Position numbers and translations under genes: made by a program. Below, piece after piece: positions 11,774 to 30,877 of a stretch of DNA of 64,000 nt. The stretch is from the NCBI GenBank assembly GCA_029880545.1, contig JAOUOD010000003.1, positions 79,222 to 143,221 of the forward strand. Direction: 5' to 3'. Origin of the DNA: Gammaproteobacteria bacterium (GTDB lineage: Bacteria > Pseudomonadota > Gammaproteobacteria > Acidiferrobacterales > SZUA-150). Each line of letters begins with the position of its first letter. Position 1 is the stretch's first letter. The notes beneath the pieces were generated by a model. That model was not told the DNA's origin, searched no databases, and saw only the letters and a list, made by a program, of their open reading frames with translations.

Positions 11774-11775
11774 TT

Positions 11776-12855: not shown

Positions 12856-12866
12856 TCTGGCCTGAT

Positions 12867-12895: not shown

Positions 12896-12953
12896 GTGCG
12901 CCACGGCAGCTTGTGGCAAACTGGTCGGGATCAAAATACGGAGCCTGACATTC

Positions 12954-13223
12954 ATGACCGATAGCCAGCAGGAAACCCCCCGGATTCAGCGTATTATCGC
13001 CATTTTATGGCCTTCTTTCCTGACGGCGGGGCTGGCAACAGGCCTGTTTTTCACCGCATTTGATCCCAATGTACTATTGATGGATACACCGTTTGCCGAG
13101 CTGAGCCGGTTGGGAGCCTATACTATTGGTTTCTTTCTGTTCTGGGCGCTGACGATGACCTCATGCCTGCTGACCTGTTACTTCCAGCGACCGTGTGTAT
13201 TCGGGGACCAGCTCGACTCCTGA
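12954..13223 (+). CDS. Small two-TM membrane protein of unknown function, between ccoP and ccoG
   Basis: 89 aa with two clear hydrophobic helices (IIAILWPSFLTAGLATGLFFTAF; AYTIGFFLFWALTMTSCLLTCYF). It is on the same strand as the cco genes. I recognise no family. Confidence 0.45.
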   Translation: MTDSQQETPRIQRIIAILWPSFLTAGLATGLFFTAFDPNVLLMDTPFAELSRLGAYTIGFFLFWALTMTSCLLTCYFQRPCVFGDQLDS

Positions 13224-13266
13224 TTTATTGCGATTTGCCCGTTAGTAGTTTAGCCGTGCCGGCAAC

Positions 13267-14715: not shown

Positions 14716-14724
14716 GTTCAAATT

Positions 14725-18938: not shown

Positions 18939-18968
18939 TCGATATGCGAAGAAAACGAGGTGTTGAAG

Positions 18969-19298
18969 ATGAAGAACTGGATAGATATTGCCGCGCTGGA
19001 CGATATTCCAAAGCTGGGCGCACGCGTGGTGAAAACGGATACCGTTGATATCGCTGTATTCCGTACTGCCGCGGACGTCGTGTTTGCGCTCAAGGATGAA
19101 TGTCCTCACCGAAAGGGTCCGTTGTCACAGGGTATCGTTCATGGCAATACAGTGACCTGTCCGTTGCATAACTGGAAGATAGACCTGGGTAGTGGTGAGG
19201 CAAAGGGGCCAGATGAGGGCTGTACCCACACCTACCCGGTACGCGTAGAGAATGGAAGGATCTTCCTTGGAGCGGAATTGCATGGGGAGGCGGTTTGA
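18969..19298 (+). CDS. nirD: Nitrite reductase small subunit (Rieske-like)
   Basis: MKNWIDIAALDDIPKLGARVVKT...CPHRKGPLSQGIVHG..VTCPLHNWKI. The ORF track starts at the GTG at 18960. The ATG at 18969 sits 8 nt after GAGG and is preferred. Confidence 0.9.
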   Translation: MKNWIDIAALDDIPKLGARVVKTDTVDIAVFRTAADVVFALKDECPHRKGPLSQGIVHGNTVTCPLHNWKIDLGSGEAKGPDEGCTHTYPVRVENGRIFLGAELHGEAV

Positions 19299-19376
19299 CC
19301 AAAACATGTTTGTCGTTGTCTGTATTTTTGTCATGTTTATCGGAAATCATTTAACTGGATTGAAAAGGGATTAGTT

Positions 19377-20198
19377 ATGTCTTATCTGGAACCTAGCGAA
19401 TTTGTAAGCAAGATGGTGGATCAGGGTGAATCAAAAGTATACATGTCAACAAGGGATACTCTGATTCGCGCGTTTATGGCGGGAGCCATACTTGGCCTTG
19501 CCGCCGTGTTCGCCATTACCGTCGCGACAAAAACAGGGTCTCCCCTGGTTGGCGCGATACTTTTCCCGGTCGGGTTTATCATGCTGTACCTTATGAAGTT
19601 TGACCTGCTTACCGGCGTATTCACACTTGTGCCGTTAGCGTTAATAGACAAGCGCCCCGGGGTTACCTTCGGCCAGGTGATGCGAAACTGGGGACTTGTT
19701 TTTGTCGGCAACTTTGCCGGCGCGTTGGCAACGGCTTTCATGATGTCTTTCATCCTGACATACGGATACAGTACCGATGGCGGGGCGCTTGCCGAAAAAG
19801 TGGCAAAGATTGGCGAATCGCGAACCCTGGGTTATATGACTCACGGCGTCGATGGCTGGCTGACCATTTTTATTAGAGGCATGTTATGTAACTGGATGGT
19901 CTCCATGGGGGTTGTCGGCGCGATGATTTCCACTTCTGCCAGCGGCAAGATGATGGCCATGTGGATGCCGGTAATGCTGTTCTTCTTTATGGGTTTTGAG
20001 CATTCAATCGTGAACATGTTCCTGTTCCCGTTCTCCATGATCATGGGTGGGAATTTCACATTCACTGAATACATTCTGTGGAACGAGTTGCCGACCGCGC
20101 TGGGCAACCTGGTTGGTGGTTTCCTGCTCGTGGGATTGCCGTTGTACTACACCCATGTTCGTACCAGCCCTGATCGTGTGCTGAAACGGGCGGCCTGA
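19377..20198 (+). CDS. nirC: Formate/nitrite transporter (FNT) family channel, NirC-like by context
   Basis: 273-aa six-TM protein with FNT signatures (LLTGVFTLVP, GNFAGA, CNWMVSMGV, FEHSIVNMF). It lies directly downstream of nirBD. Confidence 0.85.
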   Translation: MSYLEPSEFVSKMVDQGESKVYMSTRDTLIRAFMAGAILGLAAVFAITVATKTGSPLVGAILFPVGFIMLYLMKFDLLTGVFTLVPLALIDKRPGVTFGQVMRNWGLVFVGNFAGALATAFMMSFILTYGYSTDGGALAEKVAKIGESRTLGYMTHGVDGWLTIFIRGMLCNWMVSMGVVGAMISTSASGKMMAMWMPVMLFFFMGFEHSIVNMFLFPFSMIMGGNFTFTEYILWNELPTALGNLVGGFLLVGLPLYYTHVRTSPDRVLKRAA

Positions 20199-20213
20199 TC
20201 AATACAGGAAGAT

Positions 20214-20238
20214 GCCAACCCCGGGTTGCGGGGTTGGC
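20214..20238 (+). other. Perfect 10-bp intercistronic stem-loop between the FNT gene and the kinase gene
   Basis: GCCAACCCCG-ggttg-CGGGGTTGGC with no U-tract after it. It lies inside the 5' extension of the tracked ORF, which argues for the ATG at 20248 as the real start. Confidence 0.5.
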
Positions 20239-20247
20239 AACCAAACC

Positions 20248-21969
20248 ATGTCCGCATCACTGAAAATTGCTGTTGGCCAGTATTCTGACAAGGGCCGAAA
20301 GCCGGTAAACCAGGATTTCCATGGTGTTACCATACCGGCGGAACCGTTGCTGGCGGCGAAGGGTATTGGTATTGCCATAGCCGATGGTATCAGCAGCAGT
20401 GAAGTCAGCCAGGAGGCAAGCCAGACCGCGGTGAAGGGATTTTTTGCGGATTATTACAGTACGCCGGAGTCCTGGTCCGTGAAATCGTCGGCACAGCGGG
20501 TGTTGTTTGCAACGAACTCCTGGCTTTATTCGCAGACGCGGAACGGACCGTATCGGTACGATATCAACCGTGGATATGTCTGCACATTCAGCGCATTGGT
20601 ATTCAAGTCCAGGGCGGTGCATGTCTTTCATATCGGCGATGCGCGGATCTACCGGGTTAGTAACAATCGCCTCGAACCACTGACAGATGACCACCGCCTG
20701 CAGGTATCCCCGGAGCAAAGTTATTTGTCCAGGGCGCTGGGTATGCGCGATCGTGTTGATATAGACTATTCGTCACTGGATGTTGAGACCGGGGATACAT
20801 TTATCCTGGCGACGGACGGGGTGTATGAATATGTTTCCGAATCGTTTGTTATTGAACAATTGCGGTGTCGGCCGGACAACCTCGACCTGGCTGCGCGACA
20901 GATAGCAGAAGAGGCGCTGCGAAAAGGCAGCAAGGATAACCTGACCATACAGGTTGCGCGCGTTGATCAATTGCCTGACCCGGGAATTAATGAACTTCAC
21001 AAGCAGGTGTCAGCGCAACCGTTTGCCCCGGAACTTCGACCGAGGATGCAGTTTGATGGCTACGAAATTGCGCGCGAGCTGCACAGCAATCACCGCAGCC
21101 ATGTATACCTGGCGACGGACACGGAAACCGGGGAGCGGGTCGCGCTCAAAGTGCCTTCCGTGAGCCTGAGAGCCGATCCATTCTTTCTCGAGAGTTTCCT
21201 GATGGAAGAGTGGGTTGCCCGGCGTGTTGAAAATGCCCATGTGCTGAAGCCGTGCAAGCTTACGAGAAAACGAAACTACTTGTACAGTGTAACCGAGTAT
21301 ATAGAAGGCTGTACGCTGGCACAGTGGATGAGGGACAATCCACAACCTGATGTGGAGCTGGTCAGGGGTATTGTCGAACAGATTGTACGTGGACTACAGG
21401 CGCTGCACAGGCAGGAAATGCTGCACCAGGATCTGCGCCCGGACAATATTATGATCGACCGCTCCGGTACCGTAAAATTAATTGATTTCGGATCAGTGCG
21501 GGTTGCCGGCGTTGCGGAAATCGCCATGACAACGGAGCGGCAACATATACTTGGTACTGCCCAGTACACGGCGCCGGAATATTTCCTGGGAGAGCCGGGT
21601 ACGTTCCGGTCGGACCTGTTCTCCCTTGGCGTAATTGCCTACCAGATGCTGTCAGGCCGGTTACCCTATGGTGCGGCGGTGGCCAGGGCTGCCAGCCGTA
21701 CGGCGCAACGCAAGCTGGCGTATCAGCCCATAGCAGGCGCAGACCACGGCATACCCGCCTGGATAGACGGCGCACTACGCAAGGCGGTCAGTATCGATCC
21801 CCTGACCCGGCATGATGTGCTGTCGGAGTTTGTACATGATTTGCGTCACCCCAATCCCCGATACCTGAGACAGGAACGCGCGCCGTTACTGGAACGAAAC
21901 CCGGTGTTGTTCTGGCAGGGTGTGTCTTTGTGCCTTGCCTTGATGGTTATCTACCAGGTTGTTTCATGA
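20248..21969 (+). CDS. Bifunctional PP2C-type phosphatase / Hanks-type Ser/Thr protein kinase with a C-terminal TM anchor
   Basis: N-terminal PP2C region: GIAIADGISSS...HIGDARIY...ILATDGVYE...DNLTIQVARV. C-terminal kinase region: VALKVP, HQDLRPDNIMI, DFGSV, YTAPE. A terminal hydrophobic helix follows (VLFWQGVSLCLALMVIYQVV). Confidence 0.85.
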   Translation: MSASLKIAVGQYSDKGRKPVNQDFHGVTIPAEPLLAAKGIGIAIADGISSSEVSQEASQTAVKGFFADYYSTPESWSVKSSAQRVLFATNSWLYSQTRNGPYRYDINRGYVCTFSALVFKSRAVHVFHIGDARIYRVSNNRLEPLTDDHRLQVSPEQSYLSRALGMRDRVDIDYSSLDVETGDTFILATDGVYEYVSESFVIEQLRCRPDNLDLAARQIAEEALRKGSKDNLTIQVARVDQLPDPGINELHKQVSAQPFAPELRPRMQFDGYEIARELHSNHRSHVYLATDTETGERVALKVPSVSLRADPFFLESFLMEEWVARRVENAHVLKPCKLTRKRNYLYSVTEYIEGCTLAQWMRDNPQPDVELVRGIVEQIVRGLQALHRQEMLHQDLRPDNIMIDRSGTVKLIDFGSVRVAGVAEIAMTTERQHILGTAQYTAPEYFLGEPGTFRSDLFSLGVIAYQMLSGRLPYGAAVARAASRTAQRKLAYQPIAGADHGIPAWIDGALRKAVSIDPLTRHDVLSEFVHDLRHPNPRYLRQERAPLLERNPVLFWQGVSLCLALMVIYQVVS

Positions 21970-22012
21970 TGGCTTGCGTTTAATGCAACCGAAAGTTGTG
22001 GCGTTCCCGTTC

Positions 22013-23740
22013 TTACCTGGTCAATTGCAACCTGTTATTGCGATCCAGTCTTCCATGGTACCGGTAGTTGACGGGGTTCGATAACTCAACCTCGTTTCGA
22101 CCGGTCTGCTGATTAATATTGTGAAGGTCCGTATGATCACCAAGAATTGTGCCATGATGATCGGTGATACGATGATCAAGTACGGGAGATACCGTTTTTT
22201 GCTTCTCAACGTAAGCGATAATTTCCTGGGGGCCTATCTTTCCGGTTTTTCTAACATCAATGGCGTCGGGGCTGTTTCTGAAAAACATATTGAATTCCGC
22301 CAATGAATATTGCCTGGCGTCATGGATGATTTCTGTCCCGACTTTCATGGAAACAATGCGTTCCGGGTGCGGCCTGCCAAAATCAACGGCGATTTCGATA
22401 CCCGAGAAGCGCCACATGTAACCACCGATTTGTTGCAGGGGATCTGCGGATATGACGTTATCTATGGCGTCCTCAAACATTCGCCTCAGATCAGCACCGG
22501 TAAAACTCATGAGATATACTGGTGATTCTGTCGGTACAAGGTTATAGATATCCTCCACGGTAATGTTTCCCGGAAGTACGGATGCGCCGTATCGACCGGG
22601 TTGGGCGATACTGACATCCTGCATTGTGCGGGCGCGCAAGGCATCGGTGATCAGGTTGTCCGCCGTACTTTGCCAGGTGCCGCTTCGATAGAGCAGCGTC
22701 GTGGTTTCGGCGATCACGCGCTGGAGTTCCTTCTCGTAGGGTTCGCGTATCGCATGAATCATTCCTGCTATTTCCGGGTCTTCCCGTACAGAGTCGGCCA
22801 GGACAGGGAACAGGGTCTGGTGGAACGCCGTTACGCGTTTGTCGCGCACTTCCAGGTCAAGTTGTCCCAGGTATTTTCCGTGGGAGCCGCTTTGCACAAT
22901 GATAACACTTCGATTTGACCTGCTGTTGAATACCAGGGTCGGCTTGTATAGCGTGTCGTGTGTGTGAGCACCGACAATGACATCAATGCCAGCCACCAGT
23001 TCAGCGTACCTGGTATCGGCCTTCCAGCCCATATGGGACAGCATAATCACGATGTCAACATCTTCGTCGTTGCGCAACCTGTCTATGTCATCCTGGATCT
23101 CGCTGACACGCAGCCCGAAACTCCACTGGGGGTGGTCGGTAACCCTGGCCATCCAGTGATAGGTCATGCCGATGATCCCGACTTTCAGGCCGTTGACAGT
23201 GCGAACGACGTAGGGCGATGTATTGGGGATAGCCGCTCGCTCACCCCAGTGCTGGTCGTAGATGTTGGCTATCAAAATCGGGAAGTTGGCAGCCGAATGC
23301 AGGCGGTGGATGGTTTCTTCATTGTAAAAGAAATCCACGTTGCCAGGAACCATGGCGTCGTAGCCCATGGCGTTCATCACCTCCACGACCGGGGTACCGG
23401 CAAGTCGAACTGGTATAACCGTGCCATGCCAGGTATCACCGCTGTCTACAAGCAGCGTCCTGTCCGGAAACTGTTTTCGCTGGCGTTTTACCAGCGTCGC
23501 GATGTGGGCAAATCCGCCGGCGCGTCCCTGGGTCCTGGCGCGATCGACAAACAGGTTATCACCTTCTTCCCGGTGGTACAGGGGGCTCAGGTAGCCATGG
23601 GTATCGTTTGTCCAGAGAATGCGTAGATGGGGTTCCGGTATCATGTGTGTGCAGGCAACTTGACCAAGAGTGGTCAGCCCAAGTATGAGAATACGCAGCG
23701 ATTTATCATCCAAGGAAAATTTCATGAATATTGGCACCAT
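22013..23740 (-). CDS. Exported UshA-like metallophosphoesterase / 5'-nucleotidase-family protein (non-canonical active site)
   Basis: 575 aa with an N-terminal hydrophobic signal-like segment. Calcineurin-fold motifs are WTNDTHGYL, DSGDTWHGT, GYDAMVPGNVDFF, LSHMG and GAHTHD, followed by a 5'-nucleotidase C-terminal-type domain. The GNHEF motif is GNVDF here. Confidence 0.85.
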   Translation of the reverse strand: MVPIFMKFSLDDKSLRILILGLTTLGQVACTHMIPEPHLRILWTNDTHGYLSPLYHREEGDNLFVDRARTQGRAGGFAHIATLVKRQRKQFPDRTLLVDSGDTWHGTVIPVRLAGTPVVEVMNAMGYDAMVPGNVDFFYNEETIHRLHSAANFPILIANIYDQHWGERAAIPNTSPYVVRTVNGLKVGIIGMTYHWMARVTDHPQWSFGLRVSEIQDDIDRLRNDEDVDIVIMLSHMGWKADTRYAELVAGIDVIVGAHTHDTLYKPTLVFNSRSNRSVIIVQSGSHGKYLGQLDLEVRDKRVTAFHQTLFPVLADSVREDPEIAGMIHAIREPYEKELQRVIAETTTLLYRSGTWQSTADNLITDALRARTMQDVSIAQPGRYGASVLPGNITVEDIYNLVPTESPVYLMSFTGADLRRMFEDAIDNVISADPLQQIGGYMWRFSGIEIAVDFGRPHPERIVSMKVGTEIIHDARQYSLAEFNMFFRNSPDAIDVRKTGKIGPQEIIAYVEKQKTVSPVLDHRITDHHGTILGDHTDLHNINQQTGRNEVELSNPVNYRYHGRLDRNNRLQLTR

Positions 23741-23880
23741 ATTTCACGCCACAATAATTCCAGTGCGCGGCGGAAAACTGTCGATAACTCGTGTTGTTAT
23801 ACAGTAAAAAAATTACACAGGAGCGGCAGATTGGCGTGGTGCTGCTCCTGTGCGAAGAACATGAAGCAAGCCAATAACAC

Positions 23881-24315
23881 TCAGGGATGAACCAGCATGT
23901 AACCCTGGCTTGATAGTTCAAGCATACGGATTACGCCGCCTTCAACAACCTGAACGTTGTCATTAAGTACGGGCTTCTTTCCCGTTTTCTTTGCCATCTT
24001 CCTGATGGTCTTGTCGCATGCACTTATTGTGACCCCGCTTGTTTTCAGGCTTTGCACCCGTTCGGCGTTGGCGTTGTCCTTGAGTGCGAGCTTCAGACCG
24101 GGACCGAAGGCAACGATTTCTACATCAATTTTGTCCATGCCATAGTGTTTTTTAAGGTTGCTGGCAATGTTGAGCACCATAGCCTGTTTCTCGGGGCTGC
24201 CATCGCTTATCTGTAGCATGACCTTGTTTGTTGCCGAGAACGCCGGTGAGCCGAACATAGCCATTACTGAGAACAGCATGATAGCTTTCGTGATTGTTTT
24301 CATGGTCATCTCCAT
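23881..24315 (-). CDS. Exported DsrE/DsrF-like family protein (COG1416-like)
   Basis: 144 aa with a signal peptide (AIMLFSVMAMFGSPAFSA). The DsrE-fold pattern is VMLQISDGSPEK...VEIVAFGPGLKL...ISACDKTIRKM with a single conserved Cys. The start is ambiguous among ATGs at 24315, 24309 and 24303. Confidence 0.65.
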   Translation of the reverse strand: MEMTMKTITKAIMLFSVMAMFGSPAFSATNKVMLQISDGSPEKQAMVLNIASNLKKHYGMDKIDVEIVAFGPGLKLALKDNANAERVQSLKTSGVTISACDKTIRKMAKKTGKKPVLNDNVQVVEGGVIRMLELSSQGYMLVHP

Positions 24316-24397
24316 ACTCCTTGTTGATTTGTCGTAAAAAACACGGTGAACGTCGCACTAAATATCTCCAAAATTCCTGTCGGGCACATTACCGGAA

Positions 24398-24982
24398 TCA
24401 CGGTTTTTGCCGGTTCTGCTTGCCGGGGATGATGACGCAGCGCTGTGCGGCATGTTTTGTATGTACCTGTTTATCTGGATGGGCACCGGCAGGTGTAACG
24501 GCAGCCCGAAGCAGGTTAATGAGATCAGGTCGTTCTTCGGCCGTAGCGCGCATTAACGCGGAGCAGCCGCTGTAATCAAGGCTGTAAATATTGGCGCCGG
24601 CGGACAGTAGTGCCTGGAGAATATCCCTGGGTGCCGTCAACGCCAGGTGCAGCGGCGTCGTGCCCGCGTTGTCGGCAATATTTGGCGACGCCCCGGCTGC
24701 GAGTAATGCCTGGATTGCGTTGGCATTCTGGTTGCGCACAGCATAAAGCAGCGCGGTACGGCCATGGATATCCCGTTGATTGATAAATTCCAGGCGCACC
24801 TGGCTGGCAGGCGCGTCCCGGGAAAGCAATGTCCTGAGCCGCTCGGTATCATTGCTTTGTGCCGCGGCATGCAAGGGGTAGGTATCGATCCTTTTTGCCG
24901 GGGCGGACGGAGATGCGGAGAAAATCAACACGGACAGCGCCAGCGTAACGATTAACTCCGGGTTTCGGTTGCGCGGTGTCAT
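24398..24982 (-). CDS. Exported ankyrin-repeat protein
   Basis: Start trimmed to the internal ATG at 24982 (MTPRNRNPELIVTLALSVLIFSASPSAPA, a signal peptide). Then come 3-4 ankyrin repeats (HGRTALLYAVRNQNANAIQALLAAGASPNIADNAGTTPLHLAL...). Confidence 0.8.
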   Translation of the reverse strand: MTPRNRNPELIVTLALSVLIFSASPSAPAKRIDTYPLHAAAQSNDTERLRTLLSRDAPASQVRLEFINQRDIHGRTALLYAVRNQNANAIQALLAAGASPNIADNAGTTPLHLALTAPRDILQALLSAGANIYSLDYSGCSALMRATAEERPDLINLLRAAVTPAGAHPDKQVHTKHAAQRCVIIPGKQNRQKP

Positions 24983-25181
24983 GGTGTGGCTCCCTGTGCC
25001 GATCCTTGCAATGGCCAAAGTCTGGCAACACGACGTCGGAATATCCCCGCGAAAGGCCGACGGGAACACAACGAAAAACAAACGGGAAAATTAATACTTA
25101 AAAACAGGAGCTTGTGTCAGCGCAATTCATACGCTGAACCGGAAGCAGTCTCCATGGGCGCGCCCAGGATGGTGAAGCAGG

Positions 25182-26852
25182 TCAGTCGGGAACCCCGGCC
25201 TCGCGCAGGTCCGACAGCAGCCGCTGGACGATATCGGGGCGCGAAAAAGGCAGGTTGTCGGAGATCGCGCGCAGGTTGATACCCGGGGTCAGCAGAACCA
25301 GTTCGGAGACAATCCAGCGGGAATCATCGAGCCTGTGCTGGTGCAAGTAGGACGACGCCAGCAGGATCTTGATCATGTAATGGTTGGGATTCCTGGAGTG
25401 CGCGGTTTCCAGTACCTCTACTGCCTTGTCATATTTTTTCTGCGTGTAATAGGCGATGGCATAGGCAACCAGGTATTCAAAAGAATAGTGGGGATTGAGG
25501 CTGATCGCCTTGTCGTTCAACCTGATCGCTTCCGCTGCCTGGCCGCGATGGCTCTTGATTAATGCCAGCAAACCGTAGCCATCGGCGTAGTTCGGAGCAA
25601 TTTCTATGGATGTTGTCGCCGCCAGTTCGGCTTCATGAAATTCCCGTCGCGCAAGGTGCGCAAAGCCCAGGGCCCAGTGCGTCTGTGGTGTTGAATCATC
25701 CAGCTCAACGGCTTTCCTTGCCAGGATTAACGCGCGGTCGAGTGTTTCCATCGGTGTATCTGTCCAGCCATGGCGGTACCGGGCAACCAGGGCCACGGAA
25801 AGTGCTCCGTGGGCCCGGCCATAACCCGGATCCAGCTCAAGCGCCTTATAGTAGGCATCAATGGCCTGTTCAGTTGATTCGGCAGTCAGGATCTTGTACT
25901 GGCGCTGCCCCTCCATAAAATGGTCGTAAGCCGCCAGGTTGGCGGTGGATTTCCGGGCGAGGCGCTGTTTTTCCTTGCGCGTGAGTTTTACTGCCAGTGC
26001 GCTGACAATATTTCTTGTTACGTTATCCTGAACCGAAAAATACTCGTCTATCTTGCGGTCGTATCGCTCGGCCCACATGTTGAAACCGGTAGAAGTATCG
26101 ATAAGCTGGGCGTTGATCCGCAAATTTCCGCCTTGCTTTTGTATACTGCCCTTTAGAACAAAGCGTACGTTCAGATCCGCGCCCACGCTTTTTGGCAGTA
26201 CCATCTCATCCTTGTAGCGGAACGCGGTGTTGTTACCCAGTACCCTCAGGTTGGCCATGCGTGACAGGTCAGTGATTATGTCCTCGGTAATGCCGTCGGC
26301 AAGCGCCTCACCTTTCGGGTCATTGTTCAGGCTGACAAACGGAAGAACAATAATAGAGGGCACGTTTGACTCGGAATGGGTACCCGTTGTTCCGAACCAG
26401 GACAAGGTCAACGCCAGTCCTGCCGCCAGGGCGATGCCGAGAAGGGCAGGTGTCATTGATACCCGGATTTTGTACCAGGCCGTGGGTTCGCGTATGGATG
26501 GACCCGATCGGCTTTCGCGCTGAAGATCCATTTGCACGGGGGCGATGAGCTGGTAGCCTTTCTTGGGAACGGTGACAATATATTGAGGCTGTCTGGCATT
26601 ATCCTGGAGCGCTTTCCTCAGCTTGATAACAGTGTTGGTGACAGCATCGTATCCTATCAGGGCGCCATGCCAGACATCGTGCTCAAGGGTTTCGCGTGAT
26701 ATCACTGATCCGGGATTGCCGGCGAGATACACCAGTACTTCCATGGCCTTGGGTTCCAGTCGTTCCGTGATCCCGTTCCGTGTTACCAGGCCTTCGGCAG
26801 GCGAAACGTCCCAGTCCCCGATCCGGAATACGTTGTTTATACTGTTATTCAT
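25182..26852 (-). CDS. Membrane-anchored winged-helix (OmpR/CadC-type) transcriptional regulator with TolB-like and TPR domains
   Basis: 556 aa. The N-terminal DNA-binding domain has RLEPKAMEVLVYLAGNPGSVISRETL...TVPKKGYQL. One TM helix follows (ALLGIALAAGLALTLSWF), then a region IVLPFVSLNNDPKGEALADGITEDIITDLSR, then several TPR repeats. Confidence 0.8.
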   Translation of the reverse strand: MNNSINNVFRIGDWDVSPAEGLVTRNGITERLEPKAMEVLVYLAGNPGSVISRETLEHDVWHGALIGYDAVTNTVIKLRKALQDNARQPQYIVTVPKKGYQLIAPVQMDLQRESRSGPSIREPTAWYKIRVSMTPALLGIALAAGLALTLSWFGTTGTHSESNVPSIIVLPFVSLNNDPKGEALADGITEDIITDLSRMANLRVLGNNTAFRYKDEMVLPKSVGADLNVRFVLKGSIQKQGGNLRINAQLIDTSTGFNMWAERYDRKIDEYFSVQDNVTRNIVSALAVKLTRKEKQRLARKSTANLAAYDHFMEGQRQYKILTAESTEQAIDAYYKALELDPGYGRAHGALSVALVARYRHGWTDTPMETLDRALILARKAVELDDSTPQTHWALGFAHLARREFHEAELAATTSIEIAPNYADGYGLLALIKSHRGQAAEAIRLNDKAISLNPHYSFEYLVAYAIAYYTQKKYDKAVEVLETAHSRNPNHYMIKILLASSYLHQHRLDDSRWIVSELVLLTPGINLRAISDNLPFSRPDIVQRLLSDLREAGVPD

Positions 26853-27243
26853 GACTGTCCACCATCCCGACTGACTCTGTAGTCAGTAATCGCTTGATAT
26901 ATTCTGTCCTGATGAAGCAGGTACGATTTTCACGGTATGAGTAGGTTAATGAACTAACCCTTATTAGTTGGTACCATTATTTGATAATTATAGTACCATA
27001 CTTTTCACAGCATGTTTTATTCCGGAAACGTCATGTTTCATGGCGTTTTTTCATTTATCGTACTGCCAGGTTGCTCTGGTGCAGAAGGAATCGACAGGAC
27101 ACCGGTTCGTTAGACAGCAGCGCTGAATGGTGTGCGCAGAATGCCGAGCAGGATATCAGTGTGCGCTTGACGGAGCCCGGTTGCCTGGCATGTCCGCATA
27201 ATTATGGCACAATGACAGTGCGGCCAACATTGGAGGATAGGCC

Positions 27244-28293
27244 ATGAAATCAGTTATCAAAGCCATATCGGCTGTAATCGTTGTAAGTGTATTCGCTATA
27301 TCCGGATCATTGTCGGCGGCTGGTTTCAAAGACGGCGAAATAAAGCGGATTCATTACCCGCAGTGGTTTGTCAATGACCCGTTCTATGATCTGCAGGGTG
27401 CCACAGCGCAGGCGCAGGCATCCGGAAAACACGGAATCATGGTGCTGTTTACCACGCAGGGGTGTTCATATTGCAGTGTATTTATCAAGGTAAGCCTGGG
27501 GAACCCGGAAATCGCCGCCGAGGTTAAAAAGCACTTTGTGCCCGTGGGCATGGAAATTTTTGATGACGTCGATATGATCAGCCCGGCAGGAAATTCCTTG
27601 CCTATCAAAACCTGGGCCGGGGAGCAAGGCGTAGAGTTTTCGCCGACACTGCTGTTTTTTGATGATCAAGGGGAGCGTGCATTGCGGGTAATCGGTTACC
27701 AGTCTCCCGAGCGGTTCAGGGCGATCATGAAATACGTCACGCAGAAGCGGTATGCGAAAGAAACACTGGCGCAATATTTTGCAGCCCAGGCAAAACCAAA
27801 GCCGGCTGCTGCTGGTGCAGAGCTGAAACATGACCCGATGTTCATCAGCCCGCCCTACAACCTGGACGACCGGAAGAAAATTGAACTGCCCCTTATGATC
27901 CTGCTTGAGGAGCCCGGCTGCGATCAATGTGACAACTTCCACGATACCGTGCTGGCTGACGAGGAGGTTCGTGGCAGGCTTTCGCGGTTCGAAGTTGCCA
28001 GGCTGAATGTAACTGATGACCACTCTGTCGTGGTGACGCCGGAAGGCAGGAAAACCACCGCTGCAAAGTGGTACAAACAAACCGGTTTCAGCCGGGTACC
28101 GGCACTGCTGTTTTATAACGAGATCAACCGGGAGGTTTTGAGCACGGACGCCCTGGTCCAGAAAAACCGAATGCTTAACGCCGTGGATTTTGTTCTTCAG
28201 CGTGCCTATGAAAAGAACTGGACATACCAGATGTTCGCCAGGTCGCAATCACTGGAGCGGGCAAGGAAGCGTGCCGAGGGGCAGAACAAATGA
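27244..28293 (+). CDS. Exported protein with two thioredoxin-fold domains, each carrying a CxxC motif
   Basis: 349 aa with a signal peptide (AVIVVSVFAISGSLSAAG). Domain 1: VLFTTQGCSYCSVF. Domain 2: ILLEEPGCDQCDNFH. Both have the Trx-like context, including the cis-Pro-type S/VP(T/A)LLF motif. Confidence 0.7.
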   Translation: MKSVIKAISAVIVVSVFAISGSLSAAGFKDGEIKRIHYPQWFVNDPFYDLQGATAQAQASGKHGIMVLFTTQGCSYCSVFIKVSLGNPEIAAEVKKHFVPVGMEIFDDVDMISPAGNSLPIKTWAGEQGVEFSPTLLFFDDQGERALRVIGYQSPERFRAIMKYVTQKRYAKETLAQYFAAQAKPKPAAAGAELKHDPMFISPPYNLDDRKKIELPLMILLEEPGCDQCDNFHDTVLADEEVRGRLSRFEVARLNVTDDHSVVVTPEGRKTTAAKWYKQTGFSRVPALLFYNEINREVLSTDALVQKNRMLNAVDFVLQRAYEKNWTYQMFARSQSLERARKRAEGQNK

Positions 28294-28521
28294 TCGATTA
28301 ATGCAAGGGAACCGGCCGCGCAAAAAGGAATTTACTTTGAATCCCGACGCCGGAACCGGGAACCAGGAAACGACGGCACAAGTTCTGTCAAACAGGAATG
28401 ATGTGGCTGAACCTGTTCGATTTCCTGTTGGATGTGTTAAATATTTAAAGTTGGTATCAGGGCCTGTCCCTGGCCAATACTCCAGGTCAAGGAAAAGCGG
28501 TGGCTCCTGGCCTGAAGACAA

Positions 28522-30057
28522 TCAGCCAATCTTGCTCTGGTTCCCGATTCTGTTGGTGCCAGGCAACTCTATCCAGAAGGTGCTGCCTTGGCCCGGCATG
28601 CTGATAACGCCGATTTTTCCGTCCATCAATTCCACCAGGCTTTTGGAGATTACCAGGCCAATGCCTGCGCCTTCTACATTCACCGTGGGATTTAACCGGT
28701 GAAACGGTGAAAACAGGCTTTCAACCTGTGTATCGGTCATGCCTTCACCGTCGTCGGTAACGGATATTCTCAGGGTGTCGGGGGCAGTGAATTCTTGGGT
28801 AATGCGGACTTCTCCACCATCCCTGTTGTACTTGACAGCGTTGGACAACAGGTTGATCAGTACCTGTTTCAACCGGGAGAAGTCAGCCAGGACCTGGCAT
28901 TGATGGCCGTTGGTGTTATCGACCACTGTGATGTGTCGGTGGTTCGCAAGTTGCCGTATTAACGGGAGACAGTCATCGATTATTTCGCCGACCGAAACCG
29001 GCTCCAGGAATACCTCCATTTTTCCGGATTCGATCTTGCCCAGATCCAGAATTTCATTAATTAGAAAAAGCAGATGATGTCCGGCCTTTAAAATCTCGTC
29101 GAGATTTTCCTGTTGCCCTTCATCGAGTCGGCCTTCTTCCAGGCCCAGGACCTGGGCAAAACCCAGTATTGCGTTCAGCGGTGTGCGTAATTCGTGGCTC
29201 ATTCGGGACAGGAATTCGGATTTTACCTGGCTTGCCCTAACAGCCTCGTTTTTAGCAGCTTCCAGTTCCCGGGTCCTCTCGGCGACCCGATGTTCAAGCA
29301 TCAGGTTGTGTGTCTCCAATAACTCCTGTTGTTGCTTTATTTGGCCGGAAGCCCAGTTGAGGGAGTTCATCAGTGCGCTAAGTTCCGAGGTTGTGCTGTG
29401 CAGGGTAATCGTGTTGCCCCGCCCTTGTGGCAGGTTTGCCGAGAAATCAGTCAAGACCGCTAGAGAGGCCAGCCGTAACCTGAGAAAAAAAATCGTGGTC
29501 AAGGATGTGACTAATAGTATTGATACTCCAATTGCGAGAATTTCCAGAATTATCTGGTATTTGAATGATTGTATATTGTCGTCGCCGGAGGTGATAGACA
29601 TCCAGGCCACTATTTGCCCGGAAAAGGAGACCGGCACGCGGACTAACAGGCTGCCGTCCGACGTGTAATTTGCATGCTCGGTGTCAAAATCCGGGTCGGC
29701 GATTCCGTAGCGATACGTGGGAATCATGTTCCCGTCTTTTGATGCCTCCAGCTCGATTAGAACCAGGCCGCGGGGACTGAAAATTGTTATGAGATCGATT
29801 TCGTCAAGACCGCCAAGCGCAGACAATTGCTGTTCGACAACAACGTAATTGTTCTCGTAGACATCAAGATTGATAATCGTGGCGATACTCCTTGCCAATC
29901 CGGTTATTCGGACTGTTTTGGACGCCTCCGTATTTCGTACTTGCCGGTTATAGTCAATAAAGCCAATAACAACTATAGCGATCGTATAGGTCGCTATAAA
30001 TATTAGTGTCAATTGTGTGCCAAGAGTGTACTTGCTCAGCTGATGATTCAAGGACAT
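28522..30057 (-). CDS. Membrane sensor histidine kinase (no receiver domain)
   Basis: Start trimmed to the ATG at 30057 (MSLNHQLSKYTLGTQLTLIFIATY...), 1 nt after the upstream gene's stop. H-box: SHELRTPLNAILGF. ATPase boxes: LLSNAVKY, DDGEGM, GAGIGLVISKSLVELM. Confidence 0.85.
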   Translation of the reverse strand: MSLNHQLSKYTLGTQLTLIFIATYTIAIVVIGFIDYNRQVRNTEASKTVRITGLARSIATIINLDVYENNYVVVEQQLSALGGLDEIDLITIFSPRGLVLIELEASKDGNMIPTYRYGIADPDFDTEHANYTSDGSLLVRVPVSFSGQIVAWMSITSGDDNIQSFKYQIILEILAIGVSILLVTSLTTIFFLRLRLASLAVLTDFSANLPQGRGNTITLHSTTSELSALMNSLNWASGQIKQQQELLETHNLMLEHRVAERTRELEAAKNEAVRASQVKSEFLSRMSHELRTPLNAILGFAQVLGLEEGRLDEGQQENLDEILKAGHHLLFLINEILDLGKIESGKMEVFLEPVSVGEIIDDCLPLIRQLANHRHITVVDNTNGHQCQVLADFSRLKQVLINLLSNAVKYNRDGGEVRITQEFTAPDTLRISVTDDGEGMTDTQVESLFSPFHRLNPTVNVEGAGIGLVISKSLVELMDGKIGVISMPGQGSTFWIELPGTNRIGNQSKIG

Positions 30058-30058
30058 A

Positions 30059-30877
30059 TCAATCAATGAGATCCTTGTACATATTTCGCACCAATGGCTC
30101 GATTTTCCTGTAATCCCGATTGTAGTCGGCGACAACCGGCTTCTGCAGCTTGATAGTTTTGAGAAGCTGTTTCCCGTTGTCACTTTTTTCCATGTTCAGG
30201 ATGGCATTCTGAATTGTACGACGTATTTTTTCAGGTACCCCGGGATGTACCATAATGGGATGTGACTTCATGCCAGGTGTGACATATATGGTTTTCAGTT
30301 GATCCCTGAGCCTGACCTGTTCGCTCTCCAGTGTCCTTTTAATCCCGCCACCAGCGGATGCAGTTCCGATTAATACAGCGCGATAGGTATTGTCATGAGA
30401 GGCTGTATATACAGGGTTATAGGAAATCCCGAAGTCGGACTTGATTATAGATTGTATATACAGGGATGCCGCGAACGCATTTTTGTCAGGAAACGCGATG
30501 GTTTTTCCGGCGAGTTGCCTGATATCGGTAATACCGCTGTCTTTTTTAACGACGACTATTCCCTCGAGGAGCTTTCGCCCGCTTCGAATTATCGGTATAT
30601 AGCCGTGCCTGATGTGTCCGACGACCCCGTACCCGGGATTGCCATAATAAAAATCGACGGCACCATGCCGAATATCTCTTTCAAAGTCATTTCGTTCCGT
30701 GTACACACGAAGTGAAATCGCAACACCGGTGCTTTCGGAAAGTTTTTGGACAAACGGCGTCCACTGTTGCGACGTAATCCGCGCGGCCAACTGGGGTGCC
30801 CGCGCAAATACCAGCTCTTCCTTGGCGGAAACTGTAAAAGCGGATATTAATAGACTGAGAATAACCAGAATTTTCAT
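30059..30877 (-). CDS. PhnD-like (phosphate/phosphonate ABC-type) periplasmic substrate-binding protein
   Basis: 272 aa with a signal peptide. The PhnD-family pattern is LVFARAPQLAARITSQQWTPFVQKLSESTG...AVDFYYGNP...KTIAFPDKNAFAASLY. No ABC permease or ATPase genes are adjacent. It is followed directly by the histidine kinase. Confidence 0.75.
   Translation of the reverse strand: MKILVILSLLISAFTVSAKEELVFARAPQLAARITSQQWTPFVQKLSESTGVAISLRVYTERNDFERDIRHGAVDFYYGNPGYGVVGHIRHGYIPIIRSGRKLLEGIVVVKKDSGITDIRQLAGKTIAFPDKNAFAASLYIQSIIKSDFGISYNPVYTASHDNTYRAVLIGTASAGGGIKRTLESEQVRLRDQLKTIYVTPGMKSHPIMVHPGVPEKIRRTIQNAILNMEKSDNGKQLLKTIKLQKPVVADYNRDYRKIEPLVRNMYKDLID

What the first reader, a model, noticed from the sequence alone, without database searches (positions are those of the whole stretch)
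22013..28293. Regulator-linked cluster of exported proteins: ankyrin repeats, DsrE-like, UshA-like phosphoesterase, and a divergent double-thioredoxin protein
Seen: four consecutive minus-strand genes are separated by gaps of 199, 82 and 140 nt. They encode a membrane-anchored wHTH/TolB-like/TPR regulator (25182-26852), an ankyrin-repeat protein (24398-24982), a DsrE-like protein (23881-24315) and a UshA-like protein (22013-23740). A two-domain CxxC thioredoxin-fold protein (27244-28293) is transcribed divergently from the regulator. Every non-regulator member has an N-terminal signal-like segment, so the whole set should act outside the cytoplasm.

Established: DsrE-fold proteins are typically cytoplasmic sulfur-relay components. 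SoxB, the periplasmic thiosulfohydrolase, belongs to the same dinuclear metallophosphoesterase/5'-nucleotidase superfamily as UshA. Periplasmic ankyrin proteins are uncommon in bacteria.

Inference: in an organism that also has sat-aprBA, this may be an uncharacterised periplasmic module. It could handle sulfur compounds or sulfonucleotides (AMP/APS) and be tied to redox chemistry, under a one-component transmembrane regulator. Co-function of the genes is not proven by the sequence.
Basis: partly seen in the sequence, partly recalled or inferred. Interest (0 to 1): 0.55.

Follow-up and report, generated by a model that had tools for sequence, protein, structure and literature searches.

The report
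Regulator-linked SoxB-like periplasmic sulfur module
The gene cluster is real, and its supposed nucleotidase is in fact a divergent relative of the sulfur-oxidation enzyme SoxB; in many uncultured sulfur bacteria this enzyme travels with its own membrane regulator and small exported cysteine proteins instead of the usual SoxYZ carrier, which points to an undescribed variant of periplasmic sulfur chemistry.

Summary
All five ORFs exist at the stated coordinates with the stated domains. The 'UshA-like' label is wrong in kind. The 570-aa protein lies on the SoxB branch of the 5'-nucleotidase superfamily (SoxB HMM 374 bits against UshA 120). It keeps all seven metal ligands but lacks the nucleotidase His-Asp dyad and the aromatic base clamp, as SoxB does. 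It is not canonical SoxB either: it scores below the 550-bit cutoff, has G-N-V-D instead of H-W-E-F, uses a Sec or lipoprotein signal instead of Tat, and has no soxYZ nearby. Its two nearest sister groups sit between soxY and soxZ.

Among 51 other loci of this tight gammaproteobacterial clade, 14 of the 18 with enough flank carry the CadC-like regulator, and all 14 also carry a secreted DsrE-like, double-thioredoxin or unknown 351-aa gene. A conserved cis-element with four 11-bp-phased repeats (window 25049-25087) precedes the operon. In another locus the same element also precedes a DsrE-like gene. The ankyrin gene occurs only here. The DsrE-like and thioredoxin proteins are portable parts that also occur in other contexts.

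Best reading: a regulated periplasmic sulfonate-releasing hydrolase module that works on thiol-bound sulfur. The nucleotide/APS idea is disfavoured. This is a new variant of a known kind.

The parts
22013..23740 (-). SoxB-related dinuclear metallohydrolase, the catalytic core of the module. PGAP start is 23725 (570 aa). It has motif III G-N-V-D and a His-rich C-terminal extension of about 50 aa.
   Evidence: TIGR04486 SoxB 373.7 bits (cutoff 550) against UshA 119.8. Best PDB sequence match is Thermus SoxB, E 7e-44. All seven metal ligands are invariant. Model pLDDT is 90.3. It falls in the non-nucleotidase branch with 92-100% bootstrap.
23881..24315 (-). Secreted DsrE-fold protein of the MTH1491/COG1416 type with a single invariant Cys (ISACDKTIRK). 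It is a candidate thiol carrier or sulfurtransferase.
   Evidence: PF02635 24.8 bits. PDB 1l1s E 3e-5. Model pLDDT 91.4, TM 0.90 to 1l1s, and it also hits DsrEFH 2hy5. The Cys is invariant in 8 orthologs and in 35 homologs. A DsrE-like gene is adjacent to the SoxB-like gene in 11 other loci.
24398..24982 (-). Secreted ankyrin-repeat protein, the first gene after the cis-element. It is specific to this locus and may be a helper protein.
   Evidence: Ank_2/Ank/Ank_4 hits. Signal with APA|K cleavage site. Absent from 51 related loci. GC3 of 0.63 matches its neighbours. AnkB-KatB is a precedent.
25036..25106 (-). Conserved cis-element upstream of the ank-dsrE-like-soxB-like genes. It contains four TYYCG[TC] units at an 11-bp period (25049-25087) and is the putative operator of the regulator.
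   Evidence: It is the only such site in 64 kb, with 0.00 expected in shuffles. It aligns without gaps to the regulator-proximal block of five other loci, with 24 invariant columns. A profile built from the block finds one extra, untrained copy upstream of a DsrE-like gene in L005, E 4e-10.
25182..26852 (-). CadC/ToxR-type one-component membrane regulator: cytoplasmic winged helix, one TM helix (129-147), and a periplasmic TolB-N-like + TPR domain. It contains no cysteine.
   Evidence: Trans_reg_C 55 bits, TPR families, and CadC model 144 bits on residues 6-113 only. TM helix. Orthologs of 33-56% identity lie next to the SoxB-like gene in 20 other loci, including 14 of the 18 with at least 2.5 kb of upstream sequence.
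27244..28293 (+). Secreted two-domain thioredoxin-fold protein (GCSYC and GCDQC), divergent from the regulator. It is a likely periplasmic reductase recruited to the module.
   Evidence: Two Thioredoxin_2 domains. The best PDB match, 4fyb, shares the GCSYC motif. Both CxxC motifs and both cis-Pro motifs are invariant in 6 orthologs. It is adjacent to the SoxB-like gene in 9 other loci and is duplicated in L008. Four of four sampled homologs elsewhere are unlinked to the module.

Best explanation
The region is a conserved, regulator-controlled periplasmic module built around a divergent SoxB-family hydrolase, not a nucleotidase.

Shown:
- The enzyme has an intact dinuclear metal site.
- Like SoxB, it has lost the His-Asp acid/base dyad and the aromatic base clamp that nucleotidases need.
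- It is exported by Sec, often as a lipoprotein.
- It is genomically coupled to a CadC/ToxR-type membrane regulator and a conserved repeat operator.
- It is accompanied by exported proteins with invariant reactive cysteines: a DsrE-fold protein and/or a double thioredoxin.
- Its nearest sister enzymes are encoded between soxY and soxZ.

Inferred:
- The enzyme hydrolytically releases sulfate from a sulfonate group attached to sulfane or thiol sulfur (R-S-SO3- or R-S-S-SO3-). A thiolate or persulfide is a good leaving group, so no general acid is needed.
- The substrate is either a cysteine adduct on the DsrE-like protein, which would then play the part that SoxYZ plays for SoxB, or a small polythionate such as tetrathionate or trithionate.
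- The double thioredoxin keeps the carrier cysteine reduced or resolves dead-end adducts.
- The regulator's periplasmic TPR domain senses the substrate or a partner protein and switches on the operon through the phased repeats.
- The ankyrin protein is a lineage-specific helper.
For: Enzyme identity:
- SoxB HMM 374 bits against UshA 120. Thermus SoxB is the best solved relative.
- Motif III is G-N-V-[DE] in 70 of 71 members, against G-N-H-E-F-D in CD73 and H-W-E-[FW] in SoxB.
- On 150 unbiased representatives, N-H proteins have the catalytic D/N in 97 of 105 and an aromatic clamp residue in 99 of 105. All non-N-H proteins, including this family, lack both.
- The non-nucleotidase branch has 92-100% bootstrap support.

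Sulfur context:
- The deep N-V clade and the nearest N-W representative lie in SoxY - SoxB-like - SoxZ - cytochrome c operons (YNCE beta-propeller in both; DUF302 and YeeE in the deep N-V clade).
- sat-aprBA-TauE lies 6 kb away in the window, and apr or sat lies within 10 kb in three other organisms.

Module:
- The regulator is present in 14 of 18 well-flanked loci, always together with a DsrE-like, Trx2 or u351 gene.
- L130, the closest relative, has the same Reg -> DsrE-like -> SoxB-like order.
- The cis-element is shared across loci and also precedes a separate DsrE-like gene in L005.
- The cysteines are invariant.

Precedents:
- Stand-alone SoxB-like proteins are needed for tetrathionate turnover in E. 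flavus (PMC7608252).
- SoxB hydrolyses trithionate in vitro (PMC5336275).
- DsrE3A forms Cys-thiosulfonates with tetrathionate (PMC4175335 abstract).
- A periplasmic DsrE-like gene lies in a sox operon (PMC9371685).
Against: - There are no activity or expression data. The chemistry is inferred from homology and context only.
- The family fails the SoxB equivalog cutoff, and its place within the non-nucleotidase branch is unresolved (support at or below 42%).
- The DsrE-like and Trx2 proteins are not exclusive partners. The window's DsrE-like copy is closer (53%) to copies in an ECF-sigma/porin cassette than to copies beside other SoxB-like genes (34-39%). Trx2 homologs are mostly housekeeping.
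- Four well-flanked loci have the enzyme alone (L001, L009, L025, L121).
- Fold comparison does not separate SoxB from closed-form nucleotidases (TM 0.80 against 0.73-0.76).
- The MTH1491-type DsrE subfamily has no demonstrated sulfur-transfer activity.
- Binding of the regulator to the repeats is not shown.
Confidence: 0.55

Rival explanations
1. The enzyme is an alternative SoxB isoenzyme that still works on the ordinary SoxYZ carrier encoded elsewhere in the genome. The DsrE-like and thioredoxin proteins would only be maintenance factors, like SoxS/SoxW, and the regulator would simply provide condition-specific expression.
For: The sister clades are encoded between soxY and soxZ. The metal site is intact. 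The thioredoxin partners resemble the accessory role of periplasmic thioredoxins in Sox systems (my own knowledge of SoxS/SoxW, not tested here). Some loci have the enzyme with no partner.
Against: No soxYZ lies within 7-10 kb in any of the 51 gamma-clade loci, nor anywhere in the 64-kb window. The change from Tat to Sec or lipoprotein export, the loss of the roughly 21-aa SoxB-type insertion after the YHRE motif, and the new C-terminal extension all argue for altered partner recognition. Whether soxYZ exists elsewhere in these genomes could not be checked.
Confidence: 0.2
2. The module repairs or detoxifies the envelope rather than conserving energy. Sulfite produced by the nearby rDsr/Apr/Sat pathway and exported by TauE attacks periplasmic disulfides and forms S-sulfocysteine. 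The hydrolase and the thioredoxins would then remove these adducts under control of an envelope-sensing regulator.
For: The module lies near aprBA, sat and TauE in the window and in three other organisms. Partnership with general periplasmic thiol-redox proteins and a ToxR/CadC-type envelope sensor fits a stress response.
Against: [quoted passage not shown] The linkage to apr/sat is loose (4 organisms). The sister clades are in energy-metabolism-type Sox operons.
Confidence: 0.12
3. The enzyme is an ordinary periplasmic 5'-nucleotidase or phosphoesterase of the UshA type that scavenges nucleotides, APS/PAPS or polyphosphate. The neighbouring genes would be unrelated.
For: Pfam assigns Metallophos + 5_nucleotid_C. 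PGAP names it 'bifunctional metallophosphatase/5'-nucleotidase'. The fold is as close to closed CD73 as to SoxB. A PhnD-like binding protein and a porin-linked DsrE-like cassette hint at anion handling.
Against: The catalytic His is Val and the Asp is Phe. The CD73 clamp Phe aligns with Thr. 'GGIR' is replaced by the SoxB-like R-Y-G. The UshA model scores 120 bits against a 600 cutoff. The PhnD/kinase genes are never syntenic. The regulator and partner genes are conserved neighbours.
Confidence: 0.06
4. The genes are merely adjacent and there is no functional module.
For: Promoter and terminator scans are uninformative. Gaps of 82-199 nt allow separate promoters. The ankyrin gene is unique to this locus. 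The DsrE-like and Trx2 families occur in other contexts.
Against: The regulator is adjacent in 14 of 18 well-flanked loci across several families and in several gene orders. The same cis-element occurs in six loci and upstream of two different target genes in L005. Trx2 is duplicated around the enzyme in L008.
Confidence: 0.05

Closest known systems
SoxB thiosulfohydrolase (TIGR04486; Thermus thermophilus structures 2WDC-2WDF, 4UWQ)
   Same: It has the same two-domain fold (TM 0.80) and is the best HMM and PDB sequence match. The dinuclear metal site is complete. The nucleotidase His-Asp dyad and aromatic clamp are both lost. It shares the P-[LI]-Y-H-R-E and R-[YWF]-G motifs, and it is periplasmic. 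The sister clades are encoded with soxY and soxZ.
   Different: It scores 374 bits against a 550 cutoff. Motif III is G-N-V-[DE], so the Asn ligand is kept, whereas SoxB has H-W-E-F with a His ligand. Export is by Sec or as a lipoprotein, not by Tat. It lacks an insertion of about 21 aa after YHRE and gains a His-rich C-terminal extension of about 50 aa. No soxYZ or soxAX is nearby. It has its own CadC-like regulator. It falls outside the 89%-supported canonical SoxB subclade.
Stand-alone SoxB-like proteins of Erythrobacter flavus 21-3 (TsdA/SoxB tetrathionate route; PMC7608252)
   Same: These are also annotated 'bifunctional metallophosphatase/5'-nucleotidase' with a SoxB-type domain, they act without SoxYZ, and they are proposed to release sulfate from tetrathionate.
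   Different: E. flavus pairs them with TsdA and SdoA/B, not with a CadC-like regulator, a DsrE-like protein or a double thioredoxin. No tsdA was seen in this window.
UshA / CD73 5'-nucleotidases
   Same: They share the Pfam domains (Metallophos + 5_nucleotid_C), the overall fold, the Asn metal ligand, and Sec-type export.
   Different: The catalytic His becomes Val and the Asp becomes Phe. The base-stacking Phe becomes Thr. The phosphate-binding GGIR becomes G-R-Y-G. The UshA model scores 120 bits against a 600 cutoff.
DsrE/TusD-family sulfurtransferases; MTH1491/ST0148 (COG1416) subfamily; 'periplasmic DsrE-like sulfurtransferase' in the sox operon of Methylovirgula thiovorans HY1 (PMC9371685)
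   Same: It has the DsrE fold (TM 0.90 to MTH1491 and a hit to DsrEFH). A single invariant Cys sits at a strand-to-helix junction. A periplasmic DsrE-like gene next to Sox genes has already been noted in HY1 and occurs in L021.
   Different: It is a single secreted gene, not a cytoplasmic DsrEFH heterohexamer. No biochemical function is known for the MTH1491 subfamily. Its closest homologs sit in an ECF-sigma/porin cassette or stand alone.
CadC/ToxR-type one-component transmembrane regulators
   Same: It has an N-terminal OmpR-type winged helix, a single TM helix and a periplasmic sensor domain. Phased direct repeats lie upstream of the target genes.
   Different: The periplasmic domain is TolB-N-like + TPR, not the CadC sensor domain. 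It has no periplasmic cysteines. The signal is unknown.
AnkB of Pseudomonas aeruginosa (katB-ankB)
   Same: It is a small exported ankyrin-repeat protein encoded in an operon with an enzyme whose activity it supports.
   Different: It has a different partner enzyme. Here it occurs in one locus only, and no functional data exist.

Membership tests
SoxB thiosulfohydrolase (TIGR04486 equivalog) | Score at or above the curated equivalog cutoff (550 bits) | tested here: not met
   The window protein scores 373.7 bits and aligns only from model position 104 onward. Deep-clade relatives score 448-451 and Chloroflexota H-W-E-F proteins 478-481.
SoxB thiosulfohydrolase (TIGR04486 equivalog) | Complete dinuclear metal-ligand set | tested here: met
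   D41, H43, D97, N129, H231, H254 and H256 are invariant in 71 sequences. In canonical SoxB the fourth ligand is His rather than Asn.
SoxB thiosulfohydrolase (TIGR04486 equivalog) | Motif III H-W-E-[FW] (His ligand followed by Trp) | tested here: not met
   The motif is G-N-V-[DE]-[FMLY] in 70 of 71 members. Thermus SoxB has S-H-W-E-W, and 17 canonical representatives have H-W.
SoxB thiosulfohydrolase (TIGR04486 equivalog) | Twin-arginine (Tat) export signal | tested here: not met
   None of 71 members has an RR motif, and at least 20 have lipoboxes. Most canonical H-W representatives have an RR motif.
SoxB thiosulfohydrolase (TIGR04486 equivalog) | Encoded with soxYZ (and soxAX) | tested here: not met
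   There is no SoxY or SoxZ in the window or in the conserved neighbour gene sets of the gamma-clade loci examined (partner tally). This feature is met only in the sister clades.
SoxB thiosulfohydrolase (TIGR04486 equivalog) | Phylogenetic placement inside the canonical SoxB clade | tested here: not met
   The family is inside the 92%-supported non-nucleotidase branch but outside the 89%-supported H-W SoxB subclade.
SoxB thiosulfohydrolase (TIGR04486 equivalog) | Hydrolysis of carrier-bound thiosulfonate to sulfate | not testable with these tools
   This needs enzymology.
UshA/CD73-type 5'-nucleotidase | Metallophos + 5_nucleotid_C domain pair | tested here: met
   PF00149 scores 37.8 bits and PF02872 68.3 bits.
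UshA/CD73-type 5'-nucleotidase | Catalytic His-Asp dyad in G-N-H-E-F-D | tested here: not met
   The family has V130 and F133 at these positions. In 105 N-H representatives the second position is D or N in 97.
UshA/CD73-type 5'-nucleotidase | Aromatic residues clamping the nucleobase | tested here: not met
   The first clamp position is Thr, while it is aromatic in 99 of 105 N-H representatives. The second clamp residue lies outside the reliable alignment and was not assessed.
UshA/CD73-type 5'-nucleotidase | UshA equivalog score (NF007109, 600 bits) | tested here: not met
   It scores 119.8 bits.
DsrE/DsrF/DsrH (TusBCD) superfamily | Pfam PF02635 at or above the gathering score, and the DsrE fold | tested here: met
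   PF02635 scores 24.8 bits against 22.7. The model has pLDDT 91.4, TM 0.90 and rmsd 1.6 A to MTH1491, and also hits 2qs7, 3pnx and DsrEFH 2hy5.
DsrE/DsrF/DsrH (TusBCD) superfamily | Conserved active-site cysteine equivalent to DsrE/TusD Cys78 | tested here: inconclusive
   A single Cys is invariant in 35 homologs and 8 orthologs and sits at a strand-to-helix junction. It aligns with the Cys of MTH1491 and ST0148. Residue-level equivalence to DsrE Cys78 was not checked.
DsrE/DsrF/DsrH (TusBCD) superfamily | Cytoplasmic heterohexamer encoded by adjacent dsrE, dsrF and dsrH genes | tested here: not met
   It is a single gene with a Sec signal (AFS|A), and no DsrF or DsrH neighbours are present.
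CadC/ToxR-type transmembrane regulator | N-terminal OmpR-type winged helix plus a single TM helix with a periplasmic C-terminus | tested here: met
   Trans_reg_C scores 55.3 bits on residues 31-102. The CadC model matches residues 6-113. The TM helix is at 129-147.
CadC/ToxR-type transmembrane regulator | CadC-type periplasmic sensor domain | tested here: not met
   The CadC model scores 143.8 bits against a 400 cutoff, with its best match on the N-terminal DNA-binding part (residues 6-113). The periplasmic part is TPR plus a weak TolB-N/FlgO-like stretch.
Periplasmic thioredoxin-fold reductases (Thioredoxin_2; CSYC-type chain 4fyb) | Thioredoxin fold with CxxC and cis-Pro motifs, exported | tested here: met
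   There are two Thioredoxin_2 stretches. GCSYC/SPT and GCx[EQ]C/[VM]PA are invariant. The signal cleavage site is LSA|A. 4fyb shares GCSYC.
Ankyrin-repeat proteins | Ank repeat Pfam models above their cutoffs | tested here: met
   Ank_2 scores 67.9 bits, Ank 62.5 and Ank_4 60.6.

The most novel reading that the evidence does not exclude
In these gammaproteobacteria a secreted DsrE-fold protein (or, in other lineages, a double thioredoxin) has replaced SoxYZ as the covalent cysteine carrier for a SoxB-type hydrolase. That would make a second, Sox-independent, carrier-based periplasmic pathway for thiosulfate or polythionate sulfur, with its own transmembrane regulator. It could also be the missing route that moves sulfane sulfur off the periplasmic oxidation machinery.
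Probability: 0.25. Interest if true: 0.8.

Novelty: new variant of a known kind. Interest (0 to 1): 0.55.

Why it matters
SoxB is the standard marker gene for bacterial thiosulfate oxidation. This clade is auto-annotated either as 'SoxB' (JGI) or as '5'-nucleotidase' (PGAP), and neither name fits. It is abundant in metagenomes of uncultured sulfur-oxidising Gammaproteobacteria: more than 100 clusters at 90% identity, and 51 further loci recovered here.

If it hydrolyses thiol-bound or free polythionate sulfonate without SoxYZ, three things follow:
- Metagenomic sulfur-cycle inventories based on soxB homology would need to be reinterpreted.
- There would be a candidate neutral-pH route for tetrathionate or polythionate turnover.
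- The uncharacterised MTH1491-type DsrE proteins would get a first testable role as periplasmic sulfur carriers.

The defined operator-regulator pair also makes the system experimentally tractable.

Tried and rejected
1. A selenium link, suggested by weak NCBIfam hits to 'UshA-like', 'Trx' and 'DsrE-like (seleno)protein' families. Two papers describe no neighbourhood joining these families, so this was dropped.
2. Sigma-70 promoter and terminator scans of 21800-28700. Counts were at or below the shuffled expectation, so they are uninformative about operon structure.
3. An Rfam scan of the same region, including the 391-bp Reg|Trx2 gap, found nothing.
4. Fold search as a discriminator. SoxB (TM 0.79-0.80) and closed nucleotidases (0.73-0.76) are too close to separate.
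5. A strict three-site phased YCGT pattern across loci. It was found only in the window and in L005. The conserved block had to be shown by alignment and a profile instead. Arch-A loci carry a different repeat that the profile does not capture.
6. The first tree placed the deep clade with canonical SoxB at 76%. With broader sampling the internal order is unresolved, so I do not rely on it.
7. The assumption that the DsrE-like and Trx2 proteins are dedicated partners was rejected by their own neighbourhoods.
8. The PP2C-kinase, histidine kinase, PhnD-like and FNT neighbours as module members. None is syntenic elsewhere.
9. The ankyrin gene as a recent foreign insertion. Its composition is native.
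10. The Sauve et al. 2009 SoxB structure paper was not in the library, so active-site comparisons rest on alignments.

Full report
OBSERVATION

PGAP calls the same genes in the public record of this Gammaproteobacteria MAG (MDH5632235, MDH5632237, MDH5632238). PGAP starts the first gene 15 nt further in, at 23725, giving 570 aa. The gaps of 199, 82 and 140 nt are correct.

Pfam and NCBIfam confirm the domain calls:
- 22013-23740: Metallophos + 5_nucleotid_C.
- 23881-24315: DsrE. The score is borderline (24.8 bits against 22.7), but the fold was later confirmed.
- 24398-24982: ankyrin repeats.
- 25182-26852: Trans_reg_C + TPR.
- 27244-28293: two Thioredoxin_2 domains.

A hydropathy and (-3,-1) script gives textbook Sec signals for the DsrE-like, ankyrin and thioredoxin proteins. 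It finds one TM helix (129-147) in the regulator. The hydrolase's own N-terminus is weaker. However, 68 of 71 family members have a hydrophobic presequence, at least 20 have a canonical lipobox, and none has a twin-arginine motif. sat-aprBA and a TauE exporter lie 6-12 kb away.

WHAT THE 'UshA-LIKE' PROTEIN IS

Its best NCBIfam model is SoxB thiosulfohydrolase (373.7 bits, E 1e-111), far above UshA (119.8 bits). Its best solved relative by sequence is Thermus SoxB, at E 7e-44 against 7e-32 for CD73.

All seven metal ligands are invariant in 71 homologs. The nucleotidase motif G-N-H-E-F-D reads G-N-V-D-F-F here. The catalytic His and its Asp partner are therefore gone, as they are in SoxB (S-H-W-E-W in 2WDC). 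The CD73 base-stacking Phe aligns with Thr. The phosphate-binding GGIR is replaced by the SoxB-like G-R-Y-G.

I checked this on an unbiased sample. A profile search of 1.84 billion representatives returned 150 proteins, and I aligned them to the profile and read the diagnostic columns.
- N-H proteins (105): 97 have D/N at the dyad position, 99 have an aromatic clamp residue, and 1 has a Tat signal.
- H-W proteins (17, plus 2 H-F): these are canonical SoxB, with R-W-G or R-F-G and mostly Tat signals.
- N-W proteins (17): a heterogeneous group.
- N-V proteins: only this family and a deeper clade.

Trees put all the non-N-H proteins in one branch, with 100% bootstrap on the small sample and 92% on the broad sample. 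Canonical SoxB forms an 89% subclade that excludes this family. The order among the subgroups is unresolved.

The gammaproteobacterial family is tight. It collapses to a single full-length 50%-identity cluster that scores 1009 bits, and the next hit scores 498.

The family also differs from SoxB in three other ways:
- It uses Sec or lipoprotein export rather than Tat.
- It lacks an insertion of about 21 aa after the shared P-[LI]-Y-H-R-E motif.
- It has a His-rich C-terminal extension of about 50 aa that is confidently folded in the model (pLDDT 90.3 overall).

SISTER CLADES ARE REAL SOX ENZYMES

The deeper N-V clade comes from Nitrospirota, Nitrospinota and other MAGs, at 42-48% identity. There the gene sits in an operon with a SoxY that ends in GGC, a YNCE beta-propeller lipoprotein, SoxZ, DUF302, a cytochrome c and a YeeE-type transporter. 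L021 also has a secreted DsrE-like gene. The nearest outside representative (P0285, N-W type) has the same arrangement: YNCE, SoxY, enzyme, SoxZ, cytochrome c. The lineage from which the window's enzyme derives therefore works with SoxYZ.

THE MODULE IS CONSERVED, BUT NOT AS WRITTEN

I collected 51 further distinct loci of the gamma clade from species-representative genomes and from metagenomes. I searched them with the window's proteins and with partner variants.

Counts across the 51 loci:
- Regulator: 20
- DsrE-like: 11
- Double thioredoxin: 9
- Small secreted EF-hand protein: 7
- Small secreted 88-aa protein: 6
- 351-aa protein with no Pfam hit: 3
- Ankyrin: 0

Of the 18 loci with at least 2.5 kb upstream, 14 have the regulator, and the same 14 also have a DsrE-like, thioredoxin or 351-aa gene. 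The four exceptions are L001, L009, L025 and L121.

Several gene orders occur:
- Regulator divergent from DsrE-like, EF-hand and enzyme.
- Regulator divergent from the small ORF, thioredoxin and enzyme.
- Regulator downstream of the enzyme.
- In L130, the window's closest relative (73% identity): regulator, DsrE-like and enzyme on one strand as in the window, but without the ankyrin gene.

The window is unusual in having both a DsrE-like gene and the thioredoxin, plus the ankyrin gene.

Seen from the partners' side, the linkage is not exclusive. The closest homologs of the window's DsrE-like protein (53-54% identity) lie in a cassette made of an ECF sigma factor, a gene of about 250 aa, the DsrE-like gene and a Porin_O_P-like gene. 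In Acidiferrobacter the gene stands alone. Four of four sampled thioredoxin homologs are unlinked to the module, and two of them share a DegP-NIF3-L31 housekeeping context. The two cysteine proteins are therefore portable periplasmic parts that have been recruited repeatedly.

A SHARED CIS-ELEMENT

The 199-nt gap between the regulator and the ankyrin gene contains TCCCGTttgttTTTCGTtgtgtTCCCGTcggccTTTCGC at 25049-25087 on the minus strand. This is four half-sites at an 11-bp period. It is the only such site in 64 kb, against 0.00 expected in shuffles.

The surrounding 70 nt align without gaps to the regulator-proximal block of L005, L007, L008, L013 and L039, with 24 invariant columns. A profile of that block was searched against 1.3 Mb of loci. 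It found the training copies and exactly one extra copy, at E 4e-10. That copy lies about 100 bp upstream of a separate, divergent, secreted DsrE-like gene on the far side of the regulator in L005.

This is independent evidence that the hydrolase operon and a DsrE-like gene belong to one regulon. It also places the ankyrin gene downstream of the operator in the window. No copy precedes the window's thioredoxin gene, which keeps only its divergent pairing with the regulator. Binding by the regulator is inferred, not shown.

THE PARTNER PROTEINS

The DsrE-like model (pLDDT 91.4) superposes on MTH1491 with TM 0.90 and rmsd 1.6 A. It also hits ST0148, SSO1126, a putative DsrE sulfurtransferase and DsrEFH. 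Its single Cys is invariant and lies at a strand-to-helix junction in the motif [AV]-C-x-x-T-[MI]-x-K.

Both thioredoxin domains keep their CxxC and cis-Pro motifs. The first domain has the unusual CSYC also present in chain 4fyb.

The regulator has no cysteine, so it is not itself a thiol sensor.

The ankyrin gene is compositionally native. It has a functional precedent in AnkB, a periplasmic ankyrin protein needed for the activity of catalase KatB.

MECHANISM

Shown:
- A metal-competent hydrolase of SoxB descent that has lost the nucleotidase machinery.
- Export to the periplasm.
- Conserved coupling to a membrane regulator and an operator.
- Conserved reactive cysteines in the accompanying proteins.
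- A genome background of sulfur oxidation.

Inferred:
- The enzyme hydrolyses a sulfonate from sulfane or thiol sulfur. The leaving group needs no general acid, which matches the His-to-Val change.
- The substrate is either a Cys adduct on the DsrE-like protein, which would then be a functional stand-in for SoxYZ, or a free polythionate.
- The thioredoxin regenerates the thiol.

Precedents:
- Stand-alone SoxB-like proteins are required downstream of TsdA in E. flavus (PMC7608252).
- SoxB acts on trithionate in vitro (PMC5336275).
- DsrE3A forms thiosulfonates with tetrathionate (PMC4175335 abstract).
- A periplasmic DsrE-like gene lies in the sox operon of M. thiovorans (PMC9371685).

I put 0.55 on this reading. 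The rivals are:
- An isoenzyme that still uses a distant SoxYZ: 0.2.
- A repair system for sulfite damage: 0.12.
- An ordinary nucleotidase: 0.06.
- Chance adjacency: 0.05.

NOVELTY AND VERDICT

Nothing in the searchable literature describes this clade or its regulator and partner set. Public annotation calls it either SoxB or a 5'-nucleotidase. It is a new variant of a known kind: a SoxB-related enzyme with changed active-site motif, export route, partners and regulation.

Its interpretation is partly supported. The sulfur-module idea and the regulator link hold. The UshA label, the nucleotide and APS suggestion, and the inclusion of the ankyrin gene in a conserved set do not. Interest is 0.55.

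Noticed in passing
L024:470-6992; also L021, L022, L023 and L132:1032-5718: A non-canonical Sox-type operon occurs in Nitrospirota, Nitrospinota and other MAGs. It runs SoxY (Tat signal, ends GGC), YNCE beta-propeller lipoprotein, SoxB-like (N-V or N-W motif, below the SoxB cutoff), SoxZ, DUF302, cytochrome c and a YeeE transporter. L022 also has a DsbH/DUF255 thioredoxin.
   Followed up: partly
L087:5428-8948 and L088:5399-8972: A conserved cassette runs ECF sigma factor, a gene of about 250 aa with no Pfam hit, then divergently a secreted DsrE-like protein and a protein of about 490 aa with a faint Porin_O_P hit. It holds the closest homologs of the window's DsrE-like protein.
   Followed up: partly
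window 28522-30877 (-): A HisKA/HATPase sensor kinase ORF overlaps the upstream PhnD-like periplasmic binding protein gene by 125 nt when read from its GTG start. The true start is probably further in. No response regulator is adjacent. This pair is not syntenic with the module elsewhere.
   Followed up: no
window 20212-21969 (+): A single polypeptide fuses a PP2C phosphatase with a Ser/Thr kinase and has a C-terminal TM helix. It is convergent with the SoxB-like gene, with 43 nt between the stop codons. It is not conserved next to the module.
   Followed up: no
window 33567-34466 (-): A 299-aa protein with a CxxCxxCC (PF03692) domain lies directly downstream of aprA, where a membrane anchor or electron partner of APS reductase might be expected. 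L003 has an unrelated 282-aa protein with no Pfam hit next to aprB.
   Followed up: no
window 22013-23740 (-), residues about 515-570 of the product: A His-rich C-terminal extension (DHRITDHHGTILGDHTDLH...) is specific to the gamma clade and confidently folded in the model. It could help load metal into an enzyme that is exported unfolded by Sec. Secreted EF-hand proteins accompany the enzyme in 7 loci.
   Followed up: partly
L005:7901-8956; L097:2758-3735; L115:5133-6110: A secreted 351-aa protein with no Pfam hit takes the place of the DsrE-like or thioredoxin gene between the regulator and the SoxB-like gene in three loci.
   Followed up: no
L008:8864-9907 and L008:11709-12767: Two paralogs of the double-thioredoxin protein flank the SoxB-like gene in one MAG. 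Another MAG (JANOTM01; L018, L019) has two paralogs of the SoxB-like enzyme itself.
   Followed up: no
L130:1395-1425 and window about 25030-25050 (-): Just 3' of the phased repeats, the window has GGGGATATTCCGAC. The closest relative has GGGAATATTACCG in its Reg-to-DsrE gap. This is a near-palindromic motif that may be a second operator element.
   Followed up: no
window 9731-15231, 16500-20198, 42381-46313 and 49996-51974: The genomic context includes a cbb3 oxidase cluster (ccoNOP, ccoG, ccoH, and the P-type ATPase at 6283-8745), nirBD with a formate/nitrite transporter, a 1310-aa FG-GAP repeat protein, and two tandem multicopper-oxidase-like genes.
   Followed up: no
representatives (for example P0305, P0313, P0353, P0374): A diverse 'N-W' group (17 of 150 representatives), plus a small 'N-R' group, also lacks the nucleotidase dyad and clamp but is not canonical SoxB. 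These are uncharacterised relatives that current annotation probably lumps with 5'-nucleotidases.
   Followed up: partly
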